Source: an uncultured Chloroflexia bacterium (GTDB taxonomy: Bacteria > Chloroflexota > Limnocylindria > Limnocylindrales > CSP1-4). From it: a DNA stretch of 64,000 bases. The DNA is taken from positions 33,507 to 97,506 of the forward strand of contig CAWJUA010000013.1 of the NCBI GenBank assembly GCA_963845925.1. Reading direction: 5' to 3'. The position numbers were made by a program, and so were the translations under genes. The stretch's first letter is position 1; each line of letters begins with the position of its first letter. This document shows positions 33,746 to 39,581 of the stretch, in pieces. Below the pieces are notes generated by a model that worked only from the letters and a program-made list of their open reading frames with translations, was not told where the DNA came from and made no database searches.

Positions 33746-33770
33746 CGCAGTCTCCCGATCCCGCTTCAAG

Positions 33771-33802
33771 CAAACAAAAAACCCTCGCCACCCGGCGAGG
33801 GT
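33771..33802 (-). terminator. Attenuator terminator of the ilv-leu operon
   Basis: Minus strand ACCCTCGCC-GGGT-GGCGAGGGT followed by TTTTTGTTTG, just upstream of ilvB. Confidence 0.88.
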
Positions 33803-33828
33803 CCCTTCGGTCTTCGGTGGTGCGGCGC

Positions 33829-34032
33829 CTAGCGTCCGTTCCTCCGAGGTCCTCCGTTCTCCCGCCGGGAGCCGGTAATAAGCCCGAGAAGGCTGTCCAG
33901 CCCAAGAAGGAGCGAGCGAAGAATCCCGATGAGCGACGCGTCGTCGAGGCCGGAGTCCATTGGCACGGTCAGGCGGCGGCCGTCGGCCGTCACGACGACG
34001 GCAACATGGCGGCGATCACGGCCGTTGAACAT
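33829..34032 (-). CDS. ilv-leu attenuator leader peptide (start at 34032 or 33960)
   Basis: MFNGRDRRHVAVVVT...MDSGLDDASLIGILRSLLLGLDSLLGLITG...; Leu/Ile run using CTT and ATT codons; stop lies just before the terminator. Confidence 0.75.
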   Translation of the reverse strand: MFNGRDRRHVAVVVTADGRRLTVPMDSGLDDASLIGILRSLLLGLDSLLGLITGSRRENGGPRRNGR

Positions 34033-34190
34033 GCCCAACATTCTCTCCCACTGACGCCTATGGCCGGTCTCCCGGTCACGTGAGCGGCAGTCTACGAGGC
34101 CGCGCACGATCGCGCAACCTGCCGGACCCTACCGGACGCCACCGTGTGTCCACCACTGGTCACGTGCGCGGCCTGCTGCCTTCGCCGCGG

Positions 34191-34228
34191 AAACGCATGA
34201 GACCGCCGGTTGCCCGGCGGTCTCATGC
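34191..34228 (-). terminator. Terminator hairpin after the two small peptide genes
   Basis: Perfect 15-bp stem (34195-34209 / 34214-34228), GCAA loop on the minus strand, then GTTT. Confidence 0.8.
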
Positions 34229-34252
34229 CTGTCTGGATCCAGATGGACCCAA

Positions 34253-34354
34253 TTACTTCCAGCGCTGACCGGCCTCGATGACGTAAGCCGAGCTTGCGAG
34301 CGCCGAGAGGACGAGGAGGACCCGGAAGGCCTGAGCCTTGAACATGCGGGTCAT
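34253..34354 (-). CDS. Small peptide 2 (33 aa) MTRMFKAQAFRVLLVLSALASSAYVIEAGQRWK
   Basis: Translated by hand; starts 4 nt after the peptide 1 stop; shares LAS.A....AG.RW. with peptide 1. Confidence 0.75.
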   Translation of the reverse strand: MTRMFKAQAFRVLLVLSALASSAYVIEAGQRWK

Positions 34355-34358
34355 CGCG

Positions 34359-34448
34359 TCAGTCCCAGCGCATCCCAGCGCCGACGGTGAGGGCCATTGA
34401 TGCCAGGAGCATCACTGCCCACGTGAAGCGAGCCAGGTACTTCTTCAC
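34359..34448 (-). CDS. Small peptide 1 (29 aa) MKKYLARFTWAVMLLASMALTVGAGMRWD
   Basis: AAGGAG RBS before GTG 34448; basic N-terminus, hydrophobic core and AG-x-RW tail. Confidence 0.8.
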   Translation of the reverse strand: MKKYLARFTWAVMLLASMALTVGAGMRWD

Positions 34449-34483
34449 GATGTGACTCCTTCGAGTCTGCCTGACGTCGTTCC

Positions 34484-34564
34484 CTCGGCGGCCGGGCGGT
34501 CTTCCGTGACGGGAAGATCCCTGGCTTTGCGTCCCCGTCTCACGACGGGTTTGCCCTGGACGAG
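34484..34564 (-). ncRNA. c-di-GMP-I (GEMM) riboswitch aptamer
   Basis: Minus strand CTCGTCCAGGGCAAACCCGTCGTGAGACGGGGACGCAAAGCCAGGGATCTTCCCGTCACGGAAGACCGCCCGGCCGCCGAG: GGGCAAACC, GNRA loop (GTGA), GGACGCAAAGCC, terminal CCGA and CTCG/CGAG P1. Confidence 0.9.
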
Positions 34565-34668
34565 CTCGCGGCGGAGGAGGTAGTCCTCGTCGTGAACGTT
34601 GCGAGTACGGCTGCCGATCCACTATGGGCCATCGGTACCAGTCGGACACGACTTGCGAGTCAGTGCGT

Positions 34669-35226
34669 TCAGTCATCACCCGTCGGGCCGACCACGCCGG
34701 AGCGCGCGCCGCGACGCATCGTCGTGACGATCACGACCACGACGCCGATCGCCAGGATCGCGTCCCCGACGCTGAAGATGTTGTTGAACGGCAGCCACGT
34801 CGGCAGCGCGAAGATGTCGGTCAGCGGCTCCAGCATCGGATGGGCCAGCACGGCACTGTTTGAGTAGATCACGGGGTCTGCCCTGCCGAGTGCGGCCATC
34901 GCGCCGGGCGATGCCGGCATGAAGCCGCCGTTGGCGAGGATCGCGGCGAGGTTGCAGGCGGCCCCGAGCGCGACCAGCGGGATGCCGGGCACGTCGAGGT
35001 TTCGAAGCACGGCGATCACGACCATGAGCGTGCTCCCGACGTACAGGATCGGCCCGAGGCTACCCACCCGCTCCGCGATCGCGTCCTGGAAGAGGACGAC
35101 CTGCACGAGAAAGCCGGCGAACACGAGCGGCCACCAGCGGAACTTGATCTCGCCGAGGCGGGATGGCCTGCCGCCCAGCAGCAGGCCGATGACCAGGCCG
35201 ATCGCGACGGCGTAGAGGATGAACAT
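34669..35226 (-). CDS. DUF5317-like membrane protein
   Basis: Hydrophobic protein with GG..RL, N..AI.ANGG.MP, L.DIF and FSVGD motifs; GGAG RBS. Confidence 0.8.
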   Translation of the reverse strand: MFILYAVAIGLVIGLLLGGRPSRLGEIKFRWWPLVFAGFLVQVVLFQDAIAERVGSLGPILYVGSTLMVVIAVLRNLDVPGIPLVALGAACNLAAILANGGFMPASPGAMAALGRADPVIYSNSAVLAHPMLEPLTDIFALPTWLPFNNIFSVGDAILAIGVVVVIVTTMRRGARSGVVGPTGDD

Positions 35227-35248
35227 CAACTGCTCCGGGACGAGGCGC

Positions 35249-37918
35249 TCAGGCGCTGCGAAGCTTGACCCGCCGCCGGGTCAGCGCCGCCGGCTCGACG
35301 GGTGGCTCGGCCCCTGAGGCTGCGGGCAGCGGGCCAAACGTCTTCGCGGTGAATGTTGCACCGTCGACCGGCCTGGCGAACAGGTATCCCTGGCCGAACT
35401 CGCAGCCCATCTCCCGCAGCCGATCGAGCTGCCCGGCATCCTCGACGCCCTCGGCGACGATCCGCAGGCCGAGCGTCCGGCCGAGGGCGACGATCGAGTG
35501 GGCGAACGCCCAATCGTCGCTCCCGCCGTCGGCGGCGCCGATGAACTCGCGGGCGATCTTGAGGATGTCGACCTGGAACCGGCGAAGGTAGCCCAGCGAG
35601 GAGTAGCCGGTTCCGAAGTCGTCGATCGCGATCCGGATGCCGAGCTGTCGCAGGGCCTGGAGGCGCGCGATCGTCGTATGCGTGTCGTGGAACATCGCCG
35701 TCTCGGTGAGCTCGAGCACCAGCGAGGTCGCCGGGAAGCCGGTCTCGTCGAGGATCCGCCCGATGTCGTCGACGAAGTCCGCGTCCTGGAGCTGGGCGGC
35801 CGACAGGTTGATCGTCAGGACGAGCGGCTCCGGCCGAGGCCATTGCCGCTGCCAGGTGGCCACCTCGCGGCACGCCTCCAGCAGCACCCAGCGGCCGAGG
35901 CCGAGGATCGCCCCGCTCTCTTCGGCGAGGCGGATGAACTCGTCTGGACCGACGATGCCGCGGGTGGGGTGCCGCCAGCGGACGAGCGCCTCGACGCCGT
36001 ACAGTCCGCCGGTCGCGAGGCCGATGATCGGCTGGTAGTACACGGCCAGCTCCCCGCGGACGATGCCGCGGGTCAGCTCGGACGAGAGCGCGTGCCGTTC
36101 GATGATCGCCGCATGCATCGTCGGCTCGAAGACGGCGTACTGGCTCTTGCCCAGGGCTTTGGCCCGGTACATCGCCACGTCCGCGTTGCGGAGCAGGTCG
36201 TCGGCCCGCTCGCGTGGGTCACGCGCGGCGGCGAGCCCGATGCTCGCGCTGATCGAGACCTCCTGGCCCTCGATCGGGAGCGGGACCTTCAGTGCCTCGA
36301 GGAGACGCTGGCACACCGACAGGGACCGGCTCAGATCGGGGACGTCGTCCAGCAGGATGGCGAACTCGTCGCCCCCGAGGCGGGCCGCGACGTCGCCGGC
36401 CCGGACGCAGCTCCGGACGCGGTCGGCAACCGCGACGAGCAGATGGTCGCCGGCGACGTGGCCCATGCTGTCGTTCACGACCTTGAAGTCGTCGAGGTCG
36501 ACGAAGAGGACCACCGGCAGCAGGTCCGGCGTGGGCAGCACGAGGCGCGCGTTGACCTGCTCGGTGAAGAGGTTCCGGTTGCCGAGGCCGGTGAGCGGGT
36601 CGTGGTAGGCCTGGTGGCGCAGCTCCTCCTTGAGCCGCGACAGCTCGGCAAGCGACTGTTCCAGCTGGCCGTTCTCGAGCGCGGTGGCGGCCTGGTTGGC
36701 GAGCGTCTCGAGGAGCCGTAGATCCTCGTCGGTAAACGACGTGGCTTCGGTCAAGCGGTTGGCGATCTGGATCGAGCCGATCGTGCCGGCTTCTCCGCGG
36801 AGTGGCGCCATCATCGCCTGACGGACGCCGTCCGCATGCGGGTCGCCGACTGCGGGAACGTGAAAGAACGCGTGCGGCTCCGACTCGACTCGCATGCGGA
36901 TCGGGTCGTCCGGCGCGAGCCTGACCGGCACCATCGTGGTCGGCGGCTCGGCCTCGGCGGTCCGCGTGAGCAACGCGTCGCCCTCGGCCGAGCGTGGGTA
37001 AAGCACGACCTCTGCCCGTTCAGCGCGGAACATGGTTCGGGCGTGTTCAAGCAACGCCACGATCGCCGAATCCAGCTCGGGCGAGTGCTGCAGGATGCGG
37101 CCGGACTGATAGAGGAACTCGAGACGCTGGCCCTTCTCGCGCTCGGAGAGGTAGGCGCGGTAGGCGAGGAAGACCGTGCCGAGCGGAACGACGAGGAGCC
37201 AGAGCAGGCGGGGCTCGACCCACAGGATCGAGACCGCCAGCAGCGCCAGGCTCGTATTCGCGACAGCCACGAGCGTGCCGAACTGGATCATCTCCGGCAG
37301 CTTCTGGAACTGCGGGGCGCCACCGGACAGCGAGATCGCGGTGGCGATGGCAAAGGCGCTGACGACGGTCGCTGCGAGCGTTCCGGCGAACGCCGCGAGC
37401 CAGTCGCCGCTCGTCGGCTGGCCGGCCGGCGAAGCGAGGAGGTGGAAGACCGTCAGGGACACCGCGGCCGAGATCGCGAAATTGCTGAGGTTGAAGGCGA
37501 ACTTCAACGGAGGCTGGCGGAAGTAGATCAGGGCCGAGCCAGACCCGAGCAGCATTGCCAGGAGGTACTGGTCCGGCGACAGCAGGAAGAGACCGAGAAC
37601 GGCCGGGAACTCGCTCAGGGAGAAGGAGTGCTTCTCCCTCCGGAAATGGACGTCGACGACCTTGAGCTCGGCGAGGAAGAAGCCGATCGCGAGGACGGGC
37701 CAGGGAATGTTGAAGGGCTGGGCCGGCGCCGGCAGTCCCCGGAGCTGCGTCAGGTAGAGCAGCAGGGCGCATGTCGCGATCCCCGCGCTGAAGCTCCAGA
37801 CCCGCACCGTCACCGGGATCGCCGCGAGGGCACGCCGAATCGGGACGCCGGCGGCGGCGACCGGCCAGTTGCGCGAACCGGTTGGCTCGACCCGTTGGGT
37901 TTTGACCCCTCGGGACAT
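35249..37918 (-). CDS. Membrane diguanylate cyclase/phosphodiesterase (multi-TM, GAF, GGDEF, EAL)
   Basis: GGAGG RBS and ATG 37918; about 6-7 hydrophobic segments; GAF (FTDEDLRLLETLANQ); DLDDFK, RAGD I-site, GGDEF, EAL, DDFGTGYSS, AEGVE and QGY. Confidence 0.93.
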   Translation of the reverse strand: MSRGVKTQRVEPTGSRNWPVAAAGVPIRRALAAIPVTVRVWSFSAGIATCALLLYLTQLRGLPAPAQPFNIPWPVLAIGFFLAELKVVDVHFRREKHSFSLSEFPAVLGLFLLSPDQYLLAMLLGSGSALIYFRQPPLKFAFNLSNFAISAAVSLTVFHLLASPAGQPTSGDWLAAFAGTLAATVVSAFAIATAISLSGGAPQFQKLPEMIQFGTLVAVANTSLALLAVSILWVEPRLLWLLVVPLGTVFLAYRAYLSEREKGQRLEFLYQSGRILQHSPELDSAIVALLEHARTMFRAERAEVVLYPRSAEGDALLTRTAEAEPPTTMVPVRLAPDDPIRMRVESEPHAFFHVPAVGDPHADGVRQAMMAPLRGEAGTIGSIQIANRLTEATSFTDEDLRLLETLANQAATALENGQLEQSLAELSRLKEELRHQAYHDPLTGLGNRNLFTEQVNARLVLPTPDLLPVVLFVDLDDFKVVNDSMGHVAGDHLLVAVADRVRSCVRAGDVAARLGGDEFAILLDDVPDLSRSLSVCQRLLEALKVPLPIEGQEVSISASIGLAAARDPRERADDLLRNADVAMYRAKALGKSQYAVFEPTMHAAIIERHALSSELTRGIVRGELAVYYQPIIGLATGGLYGVEALVRWRHPTRGIVGPDEFIRLAEESGAILGLGRWVLLEACREVATWQRQWPRPEPLVLTINLSAAQLQDADFVDDIGRILDETGFPATSLVLELTETAMFHDTHTTIARLQALRQLGIRIAIDDFGTGYSSLGYLRRFQVDILKIAREFIGAADGGSDDWAFAHSIVALGRTLGLRIVAEGVEDAGQLDRLREMGCEFGQGYLFARPVDGATFTAKTFGPLPAASGAEPPVEPAALTRRRVKLRSA

Positions 37919-38141
37919 CAGACCTCCAGAGTTTCGTCTCCGTCCGGGCATTCTGTGGCCGCTTCGGCACATCTGGCCGTTGAACGAAGGTACGGGTCGG
38001 GGCATGACGAAGGTCACCGGACCGCATTCCTCCTGACCAATCCGCACACCGGATATCGCGGATGGGGATCGGACGACGTCGGGATGAACGCGCCCCTGTG
38101 CTAGCCTGAAAGGCCCCATTTCACGCAGGTTTCGAGTCGTC

Positions 38142-39581
38142 ATGAGCCAGCCGCGAACGATCGTCGAGAAGATCTGGGACGACCACGTCGTCGTCCAGGA
38201 GCCGGGTGCCCCGGCGGTCCTCGCGGTCGACCTCCACCTCGTCCACGAGGTCACGTCGCCGCAGGCGTTCTCGGGGCTTCGCGCCCGCGGCCTGCGGGTC
38301 CGCCATCCGGACCGGACCGTCGCCACCGCGGATCACTCGACGCCGACCCACTCGCGCTCCCTGCCAATGGCCGACCCGATGGCGGCGGCCCAGGTCGACC
38401 AGCTGACGCGCAACTGCGAGGAGTTCGGCGTCCCGCTCCATGGCCTCGGCTCGCCGAGCCAGGGGATCGTCCACGTCATCGGCCCCCAGCTGGGCCTGAC
38501 CCAGCCCGGGATGACGATCGTCTGCGGCGACTCCCACACCGCGACCCATGGCGCGTTCGGGGCGCTCGCGTTCGGGATCGGGACGAGCGAGGTCGAGATG
38601 GTCCTCGCGACGCAGACGCTGCTCCAGCGCCAGCCGAAGACCTACGAGGTCCGCGTCGACGGCCGTCTCTCGCCCGGCGTCAGCGCGAAGGACATCATCC
38701 TCGCCCTGATCGCCCGGATCGGGATCGGCGGCGGGACCGGCCACGTGTTCGAGTACACCGGCGACGCGATCCGCGCCCTGACGATGGAACAGCGGATGAC
38801 GATCTGCAACATGAGCATCGAGGGCGGCGCGCGGGCCGGCCTGATCGCCCCGGACGACACGACGTTCGACTACGTTCACGGCCGGGCGCATGCCCCGCAG
38901 GGCGCAGCCTGGGATGCCGCCGTGGAGCGCTGGCGTTCGCTCCCCACCGACGAGGGCGCGAGCTACGACCGGTCGATCACGATCGACGCCGCCGCCCTCG
39001 AGCCGATGGTCACGTACGGCACGAACCCGGGCATGGGCATCCCGATCACGTCGCTCGTCCCGTCGCCTGATGCCCAGCCCGATCCGTCCGCCCGCCGGGC
39101 CCTCGAGCGGGCCCTCGAGTACATGGACCTCCTTCCCGGCCAGCCGATCCTCGGCCAGAAGGTCGACGTGGTCTTCGTCGGCTCGTGCACGAACGGCCGG
39201 ATCAGCGACCTGCGGCTCGCGGCGTCGGTGCTGAAGGACCGCAAGGTCGCCGACGGCGTCCGGGTGATGATCGTCCCGGGCTCCGACGAGGTGAAGCGCG
39301 AGGCCGAGCGCGAGGGACTCCACGAGGTCTTCCGGGCGGCCGGCGCCGAGTGGCGCGAGTCGGGCTGCTCGATGTGCATCGCGATGAACGGCGACCAGCT
39401 GGCGCCCGGCCAGTACGCGATCTCGACGTCGAATCGCAACTTCGAGGGCCGCCAGGGCAAGGGCGGCCGGACGTTCCTCGCCTCGCCGCTGACCGCCGCC
39501 GCGTCGGCGATCGCGGGCGTCGTCGCCGACCCGCGCAGGCTCGCCGGGATCGAGGCGATCGCCCCGGTCGGTGGGCGGTAG
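38142..39581 (+). CDS. leuC: 3-isopropylmalate dehydratase large subunit
   Basis: [24 protein letters not shown] and [12 protein letters not shown]. Confidence 0.97.

What the first reader, a model, noticed from the sequence alone, without database searches (positions are those of the whole stretch)
34191..37918. Candidate peptide-signalling loop coupled to c-di-GMP: TM-GAF-GGDEF-EAL, DUF5317, riboswitch and two AG-x-RW peptides
Seen: five co-oriented elements in sequence, namely a multi-TM GGDEF-EAL enzyme, a DUF5317-like membrane protein, a c-di-GMP-I aptamer, two related 29- and 33-aa ORFs, and a 15-bp terminator. Established: Agr- and Rap/Phr-type systems combine a pro-peptide, a processing enzyme and a receptor. 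Inference: DUF5317 matures the peptides, the TM domain senses the product and alters c-di-GMP, and c-di-GMP feeds back on peptide synthesis through the riboswitch. I know of no description of this architecture.
Basis: partly seen in the sequence, partly recalled or inferred. Interest (0 to 1): 0.93.

Follow-up and report, generated by a model that had tools for sequence, protein, structure and literature searches.

The report
Riboswitch-controlled mini-peptides beside c-di-GMP enzyme
A soil Chloroflexota genome carries a conserved gene cassette in which a c-di-GMP-sensing RNA switch sits in front of two tiny membrane-type peptides next to an uncharacterised membrane protein and a c-di-GMP-making/breaking enzyme; the parts are real and travel together in dozens of species, but what the peptides do is still unknown.

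Summary
All five elements lie on the minus strand: a 7-8-helix TM-GAF-GGDEF-EAL gene, DUF5317, a c-di-GMP-I-clan aptamer, two paralogous ORFs of 29 and 33 aa ending AG-x-RW-x, and a 15-bp hairpin.

- **Peptides:** they are a real, unnamed small-protein family. They show coding-type conservation, and 237 clusters were found in public data.
- **Distribution:** solid matches were found only in uncultured soil Chloroflexota whose relatives' records are mostly titled Ca. Limnocylindrales or Chloroflexota.
- **Synteny:** of 56 pepB loci in species-representative genomes, 38 follow the riboswitch. Of 34 of these that can be assessed, 32 have DUF5317 directly upstream. Of 28 of those that can be assessed, 25 have the GGDEF-EAL gene before DUF5317.
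- **Variants:** sister lineages put an HD-GYP enzyme, and once a histidine kinase, in the enzyme's place. Both carry a related TM domain.

Processing by DUF5317, secretion of the peptides and sensing by the TM domain are all untested.

My best reading, at about 0.4, is that these are c-di-GMP-gated single-helix membrane micro-proteins. I think they work with DUF5317 and the TM sensor domain as a feedback module.

The parts
35249..37918 (-). TM-GAF-GGDEF-EAL protein, 889 aa counted from the ATG at 37918. Domains: TM sensor domain 37064-37918, GAF about 36671-37072, GGDEF about 36143-36610, EAL about 35369-36079.
   Evidence: Pfam. NCBIfam c-di-GMP enzyme models match below their cut-offs. Catalytic motifs and hydropathy. 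TM-domain alignment A6. MASE9 matches only below threshold, in 4 of 19 members.
34669..35229 (-). DUF5317 membrane protein, 186 aa, with about 5 hydrophobic helices. The likely start is the ATG at 35226.
   Evidence: PF17248 at E 8.2e-26. In alignment A4 (77 sequences) the invariant residues are N77, G89, N93, M104, P105, D138, G155, D156 and G162. Hydropathy.
34574..34588 (-). Small hairpin in the leader, GAGGA-CUACC-UCCUC. It pairs a Shine-Dalgarno-like arm with an anti-Shine-Dalgarno-like arm just upstream of the aptamer.
   Evidence: Read from the sequence. It recurs in the leader alignment of 21 loci. Its role is inferred.
34483..34564 (-). c-di-GMP-I-clan riboswitch aptamer.
   Evidence: RF03167 at 67.2 bits. 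RF01051 at 61.6 bits. In the alignment of 35 aptamers, 34 columns are invariant.
34454..34467 (-). Hairpin GACUC-GAAG-GAGUC that half-covers the AAGGAG Shine-Dalgarno (34456-34461).
   Evidence: It is predicted to form both with and without the aptamer enforced.
34359..34448 (-). pepA, 29 aa, GTG start, one hydrophobic helix, ending GAG-M-RW-D.
   Evidence: Median dN/dS 0.31 and codon-position entropies 0.57/0.29/0.92. CCUGG at nt 12-16 in 45 of 47 sequences.
34253..34354 (-). pepB, 33 aa, one hydrophobic helix, ending EAG-Q-RW-K. It is a paralogue of pepA.
   Evidence: Median dN/dS 0.16.
34195..34228 (-). 15-bp G+C-rich hairpin with a GNRA-type loop and no U-tract. It is a terminator or a stabiliser of the RNA 3' end.
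   Evidence: A hairpin of at least 11 bp lies in the same place in 37 of 38 loci, with changed arm sequences.

Best explanation
This is a conserved c-di-GMP module of uncultured soil Chloroflexota whose relatives' records are mostly titled Ca. Limnocylindrales or Chloroflexota.

A bifunctional-looking GGDEF-EAL enzyme with a 7-8-helix sensor domain and the DUF5317 membrane protein are followed by a c-di-GMP riboswitch. The riboswitch gates expression of two paralogous peptides of about 30 aa.

I read the peptides as single-helix membrane micro-proteins with the N-terminus inside the cell. Their invariant AG-x-R-W end would then sit at the outer membrane face.

I propose that they act inside the membrane as c-di-GMP-dosed partners of DUF5317 and of the enzyme's TM sensor domain. 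This would feed back on c-di-GMP turnover, working like small-protein feedback regulators of membrane sensors such as MgrB on PhoQ.

- **Shown:** the parts, that the ORFs are coding, the family, and the synteny.
- **Inferred:** that the ligand is c-di-GMP, the membrane topology, physical partnership, feedback, and the direction of the switch. A conserved CCUGG in pepA codons 4-6, complementary to the aptamer's CCAGG, hints that ligand binding frees the start region. I hold that with low confidence.
For: **The peptides are real genes**
- pepA has an SD 6-7 nt before a GTG start in 21 of 21 loci, and pepB starts 4 nt after the pepA stop or overlaps it.
- Third codon positions vary most, and median dN/dS is 0.31 for pepA and 0.16 for pepB.
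- A profile search finds 237 clusters at E <= 0.001, with the match at the C-terminal end of the predicted proteins.
- No Pfam or NCBIfam family matches them.

**The parts travel together**
- 38 of 56 pepB loci follow the riboswitch. 32 of 34 assessable loci have DUF5317 directly upstream. 25 of 28 assessable loci have the GGDEF-EAL gene before DUF5317.
- DUF5317, riboswitch and peptides also duplicate as a unit (L118 and L119).
- They stay adjacent when the orientation changes (L075 and L076).

**The TM sensor domain is the constant partner**
- Related TM domains sit on the HD-GYP enzyme of L077 (E 4.7e-5) and on a histidine kinase next to a pepA-like ORF and DUF5317 in G415 (E 2.5e-5).

**DUF5317 is tied to c-di-GMP more widely**
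- It lies next to HD-GYP in 10 of 30 loci from other Chloroflexota families.
- The genome's second copy follows a c-di-GMP-II riboswitch and an HD-GYP gene.

**Other support**
- Each peptide has one hydrophobic segment and a basic N-terminus.
- Contigs from RNA libraries of three studies cover 34260-34625 with 0-2 differences.
Against: - No structure or complex could be predicted, so no binding is shown.
- Conservation along the peptides shows no significant helical periodicity. For pepA, 239 of 2000 shuffles reach the observed value; for pepB, 1531 of 2000.
- Some species replace pepB by a 23-24-aa form that keeps the AGHRW end but has no hydrophobic helix (L007, L008, L015, L028). That fits a functional tail better than a membrane subunit.
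- 14 pepB-like loci have neither riboswitch nor DUF5317, and 2 of 34 riboswitch loci lack DUF5317.
- DUF5317 occurs in 118 of 401 Chloroflexota genomes. The peptide profile matches at E <= 0.01 in 17 of 401, and the solid matches (E <= 1e-5) are confined to families f1 and f3.
- Folding models show no ligand-dependent change in SD exposure: 0.48 against 0.50.
- Folding models do not predict the CCAGG:CCUGG pairing consistently. It exceeds 0.5 in 0 of 45 leaders at the 5' site and in 10 of 45 at the second site.
- Fusion and adjacency of DUF5317 with MFS exporters fit an export role at least as well.
Confidence: 0.4

Rival explanations
1. The peptides are pro-peptides. DUF5317, possibly with an MFS exporter, cleaves or exports them. 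The short tail, or the C-terminal 12-17 residues, acts outside the cell and is sensed by the enzyme's TM domain. c-di-GMP then re-sets peptide synthesis through the riboswitch.
For: - In size and layout the peptides resemble short hydrophobic pheromone precursors: a basic N-terminus, then a hydrophobic stretch, then a conserved C-terminus (the comparison is recalled).
- Conservation is concentrated in the C-terminal ~17 residues, above all in pepB.
- Variants without a helix still keep AGHRW.
- DUF5317 is fused to, or lies next to, MFS_3/MFS_1 exporters.
- DUF5317 has two invariant Asp residues, and hhalign's best local match to A24 peptidases falls on their GxGD motif.
- Synteny with a TM sensor domain holds across three output types.
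Against: - The match to A24 peptidases is not significant: probability 0.8%, E 0.07.
- DUF5317 has no sequence relative in PDB.
- The tail is invariant across 237 clusters, with no pherotype-like diversification.
- pepB has Glu at position -3 of the putative AG|Q cut, which is poor for signal peptidase I (sequence; the rule is recalled).
- DUF5317 occurs widely without peptides.
- No transporter gene lies inside the cassette in the window.
Confidence: 0.17
2. The peptides are output effectors of c-di-GMP and not regulators of the enzyme. They would be membrane-active mini-proteins, for example depolarising like type I toxins, bacteriocin-like as a two-peptide pair, or modifiers of the envelope or a transporter. 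DUF5317 would then act as their export, immunity or target partner.
For: - There are two adjacent paralogous hydrophobic peptides of about 30 aa behind a tight RNA control element.
- Stand-alone paralogues occur elsewhere in the genome with their own SD.
- DUF5317 has links to MFS exporters.
- The other two riboswitches of the same clan in this genome each lie next to an ORF that looks secreted or repeat-rich.
Against: - The cassette sits in conserved chromosomal synteny between leuC and ilvB and is conserved across genera under purifying selection. That is unlike sporadic toxin or bacteriocin loci.
- PADLOC finds no defence family.
- No ABC transporter or immunity gene is in the cassette.
- The constant neighbour is a sensor-type TM domain.
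Confidence: 0.22
3. The small ORFs are only regulatory leader peptides, or chance ORFs of the riboswitch expression platform. One version is that they attenuate the ilvB gene downstream.
For: - ilvB lies downstream on the same strand in at least 25 of the 38 riboswitch loci.
- The peptides are rich in Leu, Val and Ala.
- A hairpin follows them.
- Codons 4-6 of pepA are constrained at the RNA level.
Against: - ilvB has its own upstream ORF and a classic U-tract terminator at about 33770-33803, between the cassette hairpin and ilvB.
- The peptide sequences are conserved at the protein level, including an invariant AG-x-RW end.
- Paralogues exist away from ilvB and away from any riboswitch.
- In tandem cassettes the peptides are followed by DUF5317, not by ilvB.
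Confidence: 0.03

Closest known systems
c-di-GMP-I (GEMM-I) riboswitches controlling downstream genes (Rfam RF01051; clan CL00126)
   Same: The aptamer scores well above the curated cut-offs of both clan members and lies in a 5' leader directly before a coding region. Its genomic neighbours are c-di-GMP enzymes.
   Different: - The regulated genes are two ORFs of about 30 aa from an unnamed family.
- The switch lies inside a co-oriented gene row, directly after an enzyme and DUF5317.
- Rfam's best label is the GGC variant. However, all 35 aligned aptamers have A where that model's consensus has G.
- That this column is the variant-defining one is my recall. The source paper was not held.
Small membrane-protein feedback regulators of membrane sensors (MgrB on PhoQ, SafA; recalled)
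   Same: These are very small single-helix proteins whose synthesis depends on the pathway they would act on. Here the peptides are encoded next to a membrane sensor enzyme.
   Different: Control is by a riboswitch rather than a transcription factor. Two paralogous peptides and a third membrane protein (DUF5317) are involved. No interaction has been shown.
Gram-positive peptide signalling (Agr, Rap/Phr, Rgg/SHP; recalled)
   Same: A short precursor-like ORF with a basic N-terminus and a hydrophobic body is encoded beside membrane proteins and a sensor-like domain.
   Different: - There is no homologue of AgrB, AgrC, Rap, Rgg, Eep or Opp in the cassette.
- The C-terminal motif is invariant rather than strain-specific.
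- The output is a second-messenger enzyme.
- The host is a Chloroflexota lineage.
HD-GYP + DUF5317 gene pairs in other Chloroflexota
   Same: DUF5317 lies next to a membrane-anchored c-di-GMP phosphodiesterase in 10 of 30 loci from other families. The same is true at the second locus of this genome.
   Different: Those loci have no riboswitch: 0 of 20 and 0 of 9. They also have no AG-x-RW ORF, with one exception, G415. No paper in the held library mentions DUF5317.

Membership tests
c-di-GMP-I riboswitch clan (RF01051 / RF03167) | The covariance-model score reaches the curated gathering score. | tested here: met
   RF03167 scores 67.2 bits against 59. RF01051 scores 61.6 bits against 35.
c-di-GMP-I-GGC variant subclass (RF03167) | G in place of the intercalating A, at the first A after GACGC. 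Both the position and its meaning are recalled. | tested here: not met
   The window has GACGCAAAGCC where the model consensus has GACGCGAAgCc. All 35 aligned aptamers have A at that column. By this criterion it is the canonical type.
c-di-GMP-I riboswitch clan | Binds c-di-GMP and switches expression. | not testable with these tools
   This needs in-line probing or a reporter assay. Folding models gave no clear switch.
GGDEF diguanylate cyclase / EAL phosphodiesterase | Pfam domains plus the catalytic motifs GG[DE]EF, an RxxD I-site, EAL, DDFGTG, EGVE and QG[YF]. | tested here: met
   for the domains and for the motifs. The motif list is recalled. Enzyme activity was not tested.
DUF5317 (PF17248) | The profile score exceeds the gathering cut-off. 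| tested here: met
   91.2 bits against 25.
GxGD aspartyl intramembrane proteases (Peptidase_A24) | Profile homology including two catalytic Asp residues. | tested here: not met
   hhalign of A4 against A7 gives probability 0.8% and E 0.07. Only a 21-column local match falls on the GxGD motif. Two invariant Asp residues do exist in DUF5317.
MASE9 membrane sensor domain (PF20972) | The profile score exceeds the gathering cut-off. | tested here: not met
   13.4-16.7 bits against 24.3. Only 4 of 19 homologues match at E <= 1.
Peptide-pheromone systems (Agr, Phr, SHP type) | The mature signal region is variable between strains (pherotypes), and a dedicated processing or export protein and a receptor are present. 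| tested here: not met
   The tail AG-x-[RK]-W is invariant across 150 listed representatives. No known processing or receptor family is in the cassette. Secretion itself is not testable here.
Anti-phage defence systems (PADLOC) | Any component matches a defence model. | tested here: not met
   0 families for all four proteins.
Leader-peptide attenuator of ilvB | The leader ORF is directly followed by the terminator that precedes ilvB. | tested here: not met
   A separate ORF and a U-tract terminator lie between the cassette hairpin and ilvB.

The most novel reading that the evidence does not exclude
DUF5317 together with the AG-x-RW micro-peptides would be a previously undescribed input module for a new family of 7-8-helix sensor domains. 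That sensor domain is plugged onto GGDEF-EAL, HD-GYP or histidine-kinase outputs.

In this reading the peptides are exported, and perhaps cut by DUF5317, whose two invariant Asp residues would be catalytic. They would then be sensed from outside. This would be the first riboswitch-gated peptide signal. It would couple an intracellular second messenger directly to cell-cell communication in an uncultured soil phylum.
Probability: 0.12. Interest if true: 0.9.

Novelty: new variant of a known kind. Interest (0 to 1): 0.64.

Why it matters
**New gene family.** c-di-GMP riboswitches are used as signposts to the messenger's regulon. Here one points to an unnamed family of roughly 30-aa proteins, with 237 clusters in public data, and to DUF5317. 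DUF5317 is not mentioned in any paper of the held library.

**Testable hypothesis.** The strict synteny with c-di-GMP enzymes that share one type of TM sensor domain suggests that micro-proteins tune second-messenger enzymes in the membrane.

**Annotation lesson.** Gene callers either miss these ORFs or over-extend them through the aptamer. Many database entries for these peptides carry the translated riboswitch as an N-terminal extension.

**Access to an uncultured group.** The lineage has not been cultured, so the cassette is an entry point to its signalling through heterologous expression.

Tried and rejected
- Structure prediction, complex prediction, the protein atlas and earlier findings were closed or empty. 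No fold or binding evidence exists either way.

**Searches that found nothing useful**
- PDB sequence search with the DUF5317 profile gave only chance-level hits, E >= 0.54.
- DUF5317 against the enzyme's TM domain showed no relation, probability 0.4%.
- The TM domain against the TM ORF before the second locus's HD-GYP showed no relation, probability 0.3%.
- The search for longer (fused) DUF5317 proteins gave 16 hits. MFS fusions recur. One histidine-kinase fusion and the EAL or GGDEF fusions are singletons that may be gene-call artefacts. Only 8000 candidates were scored.
- I looked for more peptide-DUF5317-kinase triads around G415. Its order holds one genome. In its class, none of the further DUF5317 loci fetched (L180-L189) had such an ORF.

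**Analyses that did not support a claim**
- Helical periodicity of conservation was not significant.
- Modelling of SD accessibility showed no difference.
- Modelling of the CCAGG:CCUGG pairing was inconsistent.

**RNA-library evidence and its limits**
- The enzyme gene is covered only by 90-95%-alike pieces over conserved motifs, which come from other organisms.
- Uncovered parts prove nothing, and contigs cannot show strand, ends or level.
- X16 and X17 look like one data set filed twice.

**Literature**
- DUF5317: 0 papers.
- c-di-GMP-I-GGC: 3 papers. For one of them I read the single passage, which only lists the name.
- 'c-di-GMP riboswitch' + 'small protein' + 'Actinobacteria': 2 unrelated listings.
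- 'c-di-GMP' + 'riboswitch' + 'small membrane protein': 5 unrelated listings.
- 'Limnocylindria' + 'c-di-GMP': 0 papers.
- The paper I recall as the source of the GGC variant was not held. PMC5737381 and PMC7266159 were read only as found passages and say nothing on it. Supplements were not opened.

**A corrected early assumption.** I first took the organism for an actinobacterium. The record titles corrected this.

**Caveats on the counts**
- The dN/dS sequences were picked by a protein regex, which biases the ratio downward.
- L032 was left out of scripts and of A4.
- L009 (a duplicate of L019) and L032 were dropped from A4.
- L177 and L178 were dropped from A7.
- The genus tally of riboswitch loci is 23 of 29, or 22 of 28 without L032, which comes from the unpublished genome G010.
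- The phylum tally of 118 of 401 includes the unpublished genome G240.

Full report
**What is there**

Everything lies on the minus strand.

- **Enzyme gene.** The long ORF 35249..38326 carries GAF, GGDEF (E 1.4e-42) and EAL (E 1.5e-74) domains.
  - Homologues align from about the ATG at 37918. That gives an 889-aa protein whose first 285 residues hold 7-8 hydrophobic segments.
  - GGDEF, an RxxD site five residues before it, EAL, DDFGTG, EGVE and QGY are all present (the motif names are recalled). Both catalytic halves therefore look intact.
  - The TM domain reaches no Pfam cut-off. MASE9 scores 13-17 bits against 24.3, and only 4 of 19 homologues match.
- **DUF5317.** The gene is 34669..35229, and PF17248 scores 91.2 bits.
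- **Aptamer.** About 105 nt further on lies a c-di-GMP-I-clan aptamer, 34483..34564. RF03167 scores 67.2 bits and RF01051 scores 61.6 bits.
- **Peptide genes.** After an AAGGAG Shine-Dalgarno come pepA (GTG at 34448, 29 aa) and, 4 nt after its stop, pepB (33 aa).
- **Hairpin.** A 15-bp hairpin with a GCAA loop and no U-tract closes the unit at 34195..34228. The simple terminator scan did not list it.

**Which riboswitch**

Rfam's clan competition labels the aptamer as the GGC variant. At the column where that model's consensus has G (GACGC-G-AA), the window and all 35 aligned relatives have A.

From memory, this is the intercalating adenine of the canonical aptamer, and the G there defines the variant. 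I could not read the source paper.

The gene neighbours are c-di-GMP enzymes, so c-di-GMP is the likely ligand.

The genome holds two more hits of this clan, each next to an ORF that looks secreted or repeat-rich. It also holds c-di-GMP-II aptamers.

**The peptides are genes of a new family**

- In 21 pepA copies from relatives, the start is GTG with an SD 6-7 nt upstream. pepB follows 4 nt after the stop or overlaps it.
- pepA is invariant at M1, K2, L5, R7, A11, A19, G23, A24, G25, R27 and W28.
- pepB is invariant at K6, A7, A9, R11, A20, S21, A23, V25, A28, G29, R31 and W32.
- pepA sequences are 31-45% identical to the window's pepB.
- Codon-position entropies are 0.57/0.29/0.92 for pepA and 0.56/0.23/1.11 for pepB. 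Median dN/dS is 0.31 and 0.16. The sequences were chosen by a protein pattern, which lowers the ratio.
- No Pfam, NCBIfam or PADLOC model matches either peptide.
- A profile of both peptides finds 237 cluster representatives at E <= 0.001 among 1.84 billion.
  - The match sits at the C-terminal end, and the tails read AG-x-[RK]-W plus 0-4 residues.
  - Many of those database proteins are over-called ORFs whose N-terminal part is the translated aptamer. This shows independently that the riboswitch precedes pepA in many uncultured genomes.
- The own genome has two further pepB-like ORFs with their own SD and no riboswitch.

**Who has it**

Record titles of relatives mostly name Chloroflexota or Ca. 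Limnocylindrales MAGs, with a few other labels. The lineage is confirmed.

In 401 Chloroflexota genomes, solid peptide matches (E <= 1e-5) occur only in the window's family f1 and in family f3 of the same class. DUF5317 occurs in 118 of the 401.

**Synteny**

- **pepB loci in species representatives.** There are 56 loci.
  - 38 have the aptamer just upstream on the same strand. 4 are too short to tell, and 14 have none.
  - Of the 38, 34 can be assessed for the next gene, and 32 have DUF5317 there.
  - Of those 32, 25 have the EAL end of the TM-GAF-GGDEF-EAL gene directly before DUF5317. 3 lack it and 4 cannot be assessed.
  - The 38 loci come from 37 assemblies.
- **Within the genus.** 23 of 29 DUF5317 loci carry the riboswitch. 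The six without it include four DUF5317::MFS fusions and an extra DUF5317 copy upstream of the enzyme.
- **Variants.**
  - Some loci have a second DUF5317 before the enzyme (L081, L082).
  - Some have tandem DUF5317-riboswitch-peptide units (L118, L119).
  - In others the riboswitch and peptides are divergent from DUF5317-enzyme (L075, L076).
  - In family f3, an HD-GYP enzyme takes the place of GGDEF-EAL (L077, L078).
- **The TM domain recurs on other outputs.**
  - The HD-GYP protein of L077 has an N-terminal TM domain that aligns with the window enzyme's TM profile (probability 68%, E 4.7e-5, 176 columns).
  - In a distant family (G415), a 31-aa ORF ending GAGFRW, a DUF5317 gene and a histidine kinase with a related TM domain lie in a row without a riboswitch (probability 75%, E 2.5e-5). 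This is a single case, and no more were found in its class.
- **Other Chloroflexota families.** DUF5317 lies next to HD-GYP in 10 of 30 loci and next to MFS in 4 of 30, without peptides or riboswitch.
- **This genome's second DUF5317.** It is fused to an MFS transporter (697 aa) and follows an HD-GYP gene behind a c-di-GMP-II riboswitch.

**DUF5317 itself**

- It has five predicted helices.
- In 77 sequences the invariant residues are N77, G89, N93, M104, P105, D138, G155, D156 and G162. Most sit in or beside a long loop between helices 4 and 5.
- By the positive-inside rule that loop would face outward. The peptides' AG-x-RW end would face the same way (inference).
- No PDB relative was found by sequence.
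- Against prepilin-peptidase A24 domains, hhalign's best local match is the GxGD motif, but at 0.8% probability. A protease role is therefore not supported.

**Expression platform**

- A small hairpin covers half of the SD in nearly all leaders.
- Upstream of the aptamer, a GAGGA/UCCUC hairpin recurs.
- pepA codons 4-6 read CCUGG in 45 of 47 distinct sequences. Leu5 is CUG in 47 of 47, although CUG makes up only 92 of 203 Leu codons elsewhere in pepA. Residues 4 and 6 also vary among amino acids that keep the flanking C and G.
- CCUGG is the complement of the invariant CCAGG, which occurs twice in the aptamer. This hints that the start of pepA belongs to the switch.
- Folding models did not confirm this pairing or any SD change. 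The direction of control stays open.

**Expression**

Contigs from RNA libraries of three studies cover 34260-34625 with 0-2 differences. One contig covers part of DUF5317. This is compatible with transcription in soil. Contigs cannot show strand, ends or level, and DNA carry-over is possible.

**What it most likely is**

The conserved core is a TM sensor domain with variable output, plus DUF5317, plus riboswitch-gated peptides.

- **Best reading, about 0.4.** The peptides are c-di-GMP-dosed single-helix micro-proteins. They act in the membrane with DUF5317 and the sensor domain and so feed back on the messenger.
The secreted-signal reading remains possible. It gains some support from the MFS links, from the C-terminal concentration of conservation and from the helix-less AGHRW variants. 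The invariant tail speaks against it, and there is no evidence for processing.
- **Effector role, about 0.22.** This reading is also open.
- **Leader-peptide role for ilvB, about 0.03.** This is unlikely, because ilvB has its own upstream ORF and U-tract terminator.

**Novelty**

No paper in the held library mentions DUF5317 or such peptides.

The individual kinds, riboswitch and GGDEF-EAL, are known. The peptide family, its tie to DUF5317 and the cassette are not described as far as these searches reach. I rate it a new variant of a known kind, with a small chance of something categorically new.

Noticed in passing
window 33770-34044 (-): Between the cassette hairpin and ilvB lies a conserved Leu/Ile-rich ORF of about 70 aa. 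It contains ...SLIGILRSLLLGLDSLLGLITG... and ends at 33829. A classic hairpin with a U-tract follows at about 33770-33803, directly before ilvB. This looks like ilvB's own attenuator or a small conserved protein. A homologous ORF is seen in L031. Pfam finds nothing.
   Followed up: partly
G000:C19:94031-97996 (locus L064 4031-7997, minus strand): The second DUF5317 locus of the genome reads: c-di-GMP-II riboswitch (57.1 bits), then a TM ORF, then HD-GYP (PF13487), then a 697-aa DUF5317::MFS fusion. The same fusion locus recurs in relatives (L014, L016, L023, L026).
   Followed up: partly
G000:C13:125028-125126 (+) and C13:136829-136927 (-), outside the window: These are two stand-alone pepB-like ORFs ending EAGRRW, each with its own SD and with no riboswitch or DUF5317. 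Fourteen loci of this riboswitch-less kind exist in other species. Several lie 3-4.5 kb downstream of another GGDEF-EAL gene, and in the own genome the distance is 5.3 kb.
   Followed up: partly
G000:C13:23167-23255 (+) and G000:C11:2208-2282 (-): There are two more aptamers of the c-di-GMP-I clan. The first lies before a 179-aa ORF with one hydrophobic segment. The second lies next to a gene with a long low-complexity repeat.
   Followed up: no
window 34433-34437 (pepA codons 4-6): CCUGG is kept at the RNA level in 45 of 47 pepA genes while the flanking amino acids vary. It is complementary to the CCAGG that occurs twice in the aptamer.
   Followed up: partly
loci L068, L070, L071, L074 (other genera of the family): A third DUF5317 paralogue class lies directly after a DinB_2-superfamily gene, with no riboswitch and no c-di-GMP enzyme. 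In L069 the neighbour is an adenylate/guanylate-cyclase-domain protein.
   Followed up: no
public protein clusters P0004, P0007, P0014, P0021 and others: Gene callers extend pepA ORFs upstream through the aptamer. As a result, database proteins carry translated riboswitch sequence such as RPGQTRREAGTQSQGS, QGKPVARRGRKARDL or SRANPSRGGDAKPGI. pepB ORFs are likewise extended through pepA in another frame (EGEPGALH).
   Followed up: yes
loci L007, L008, L015, L028: In some species pepB is replaced by a 23-24-aa ORF without a hydrophobic helix that still ends AGHRW[FT].
   Followed up: no
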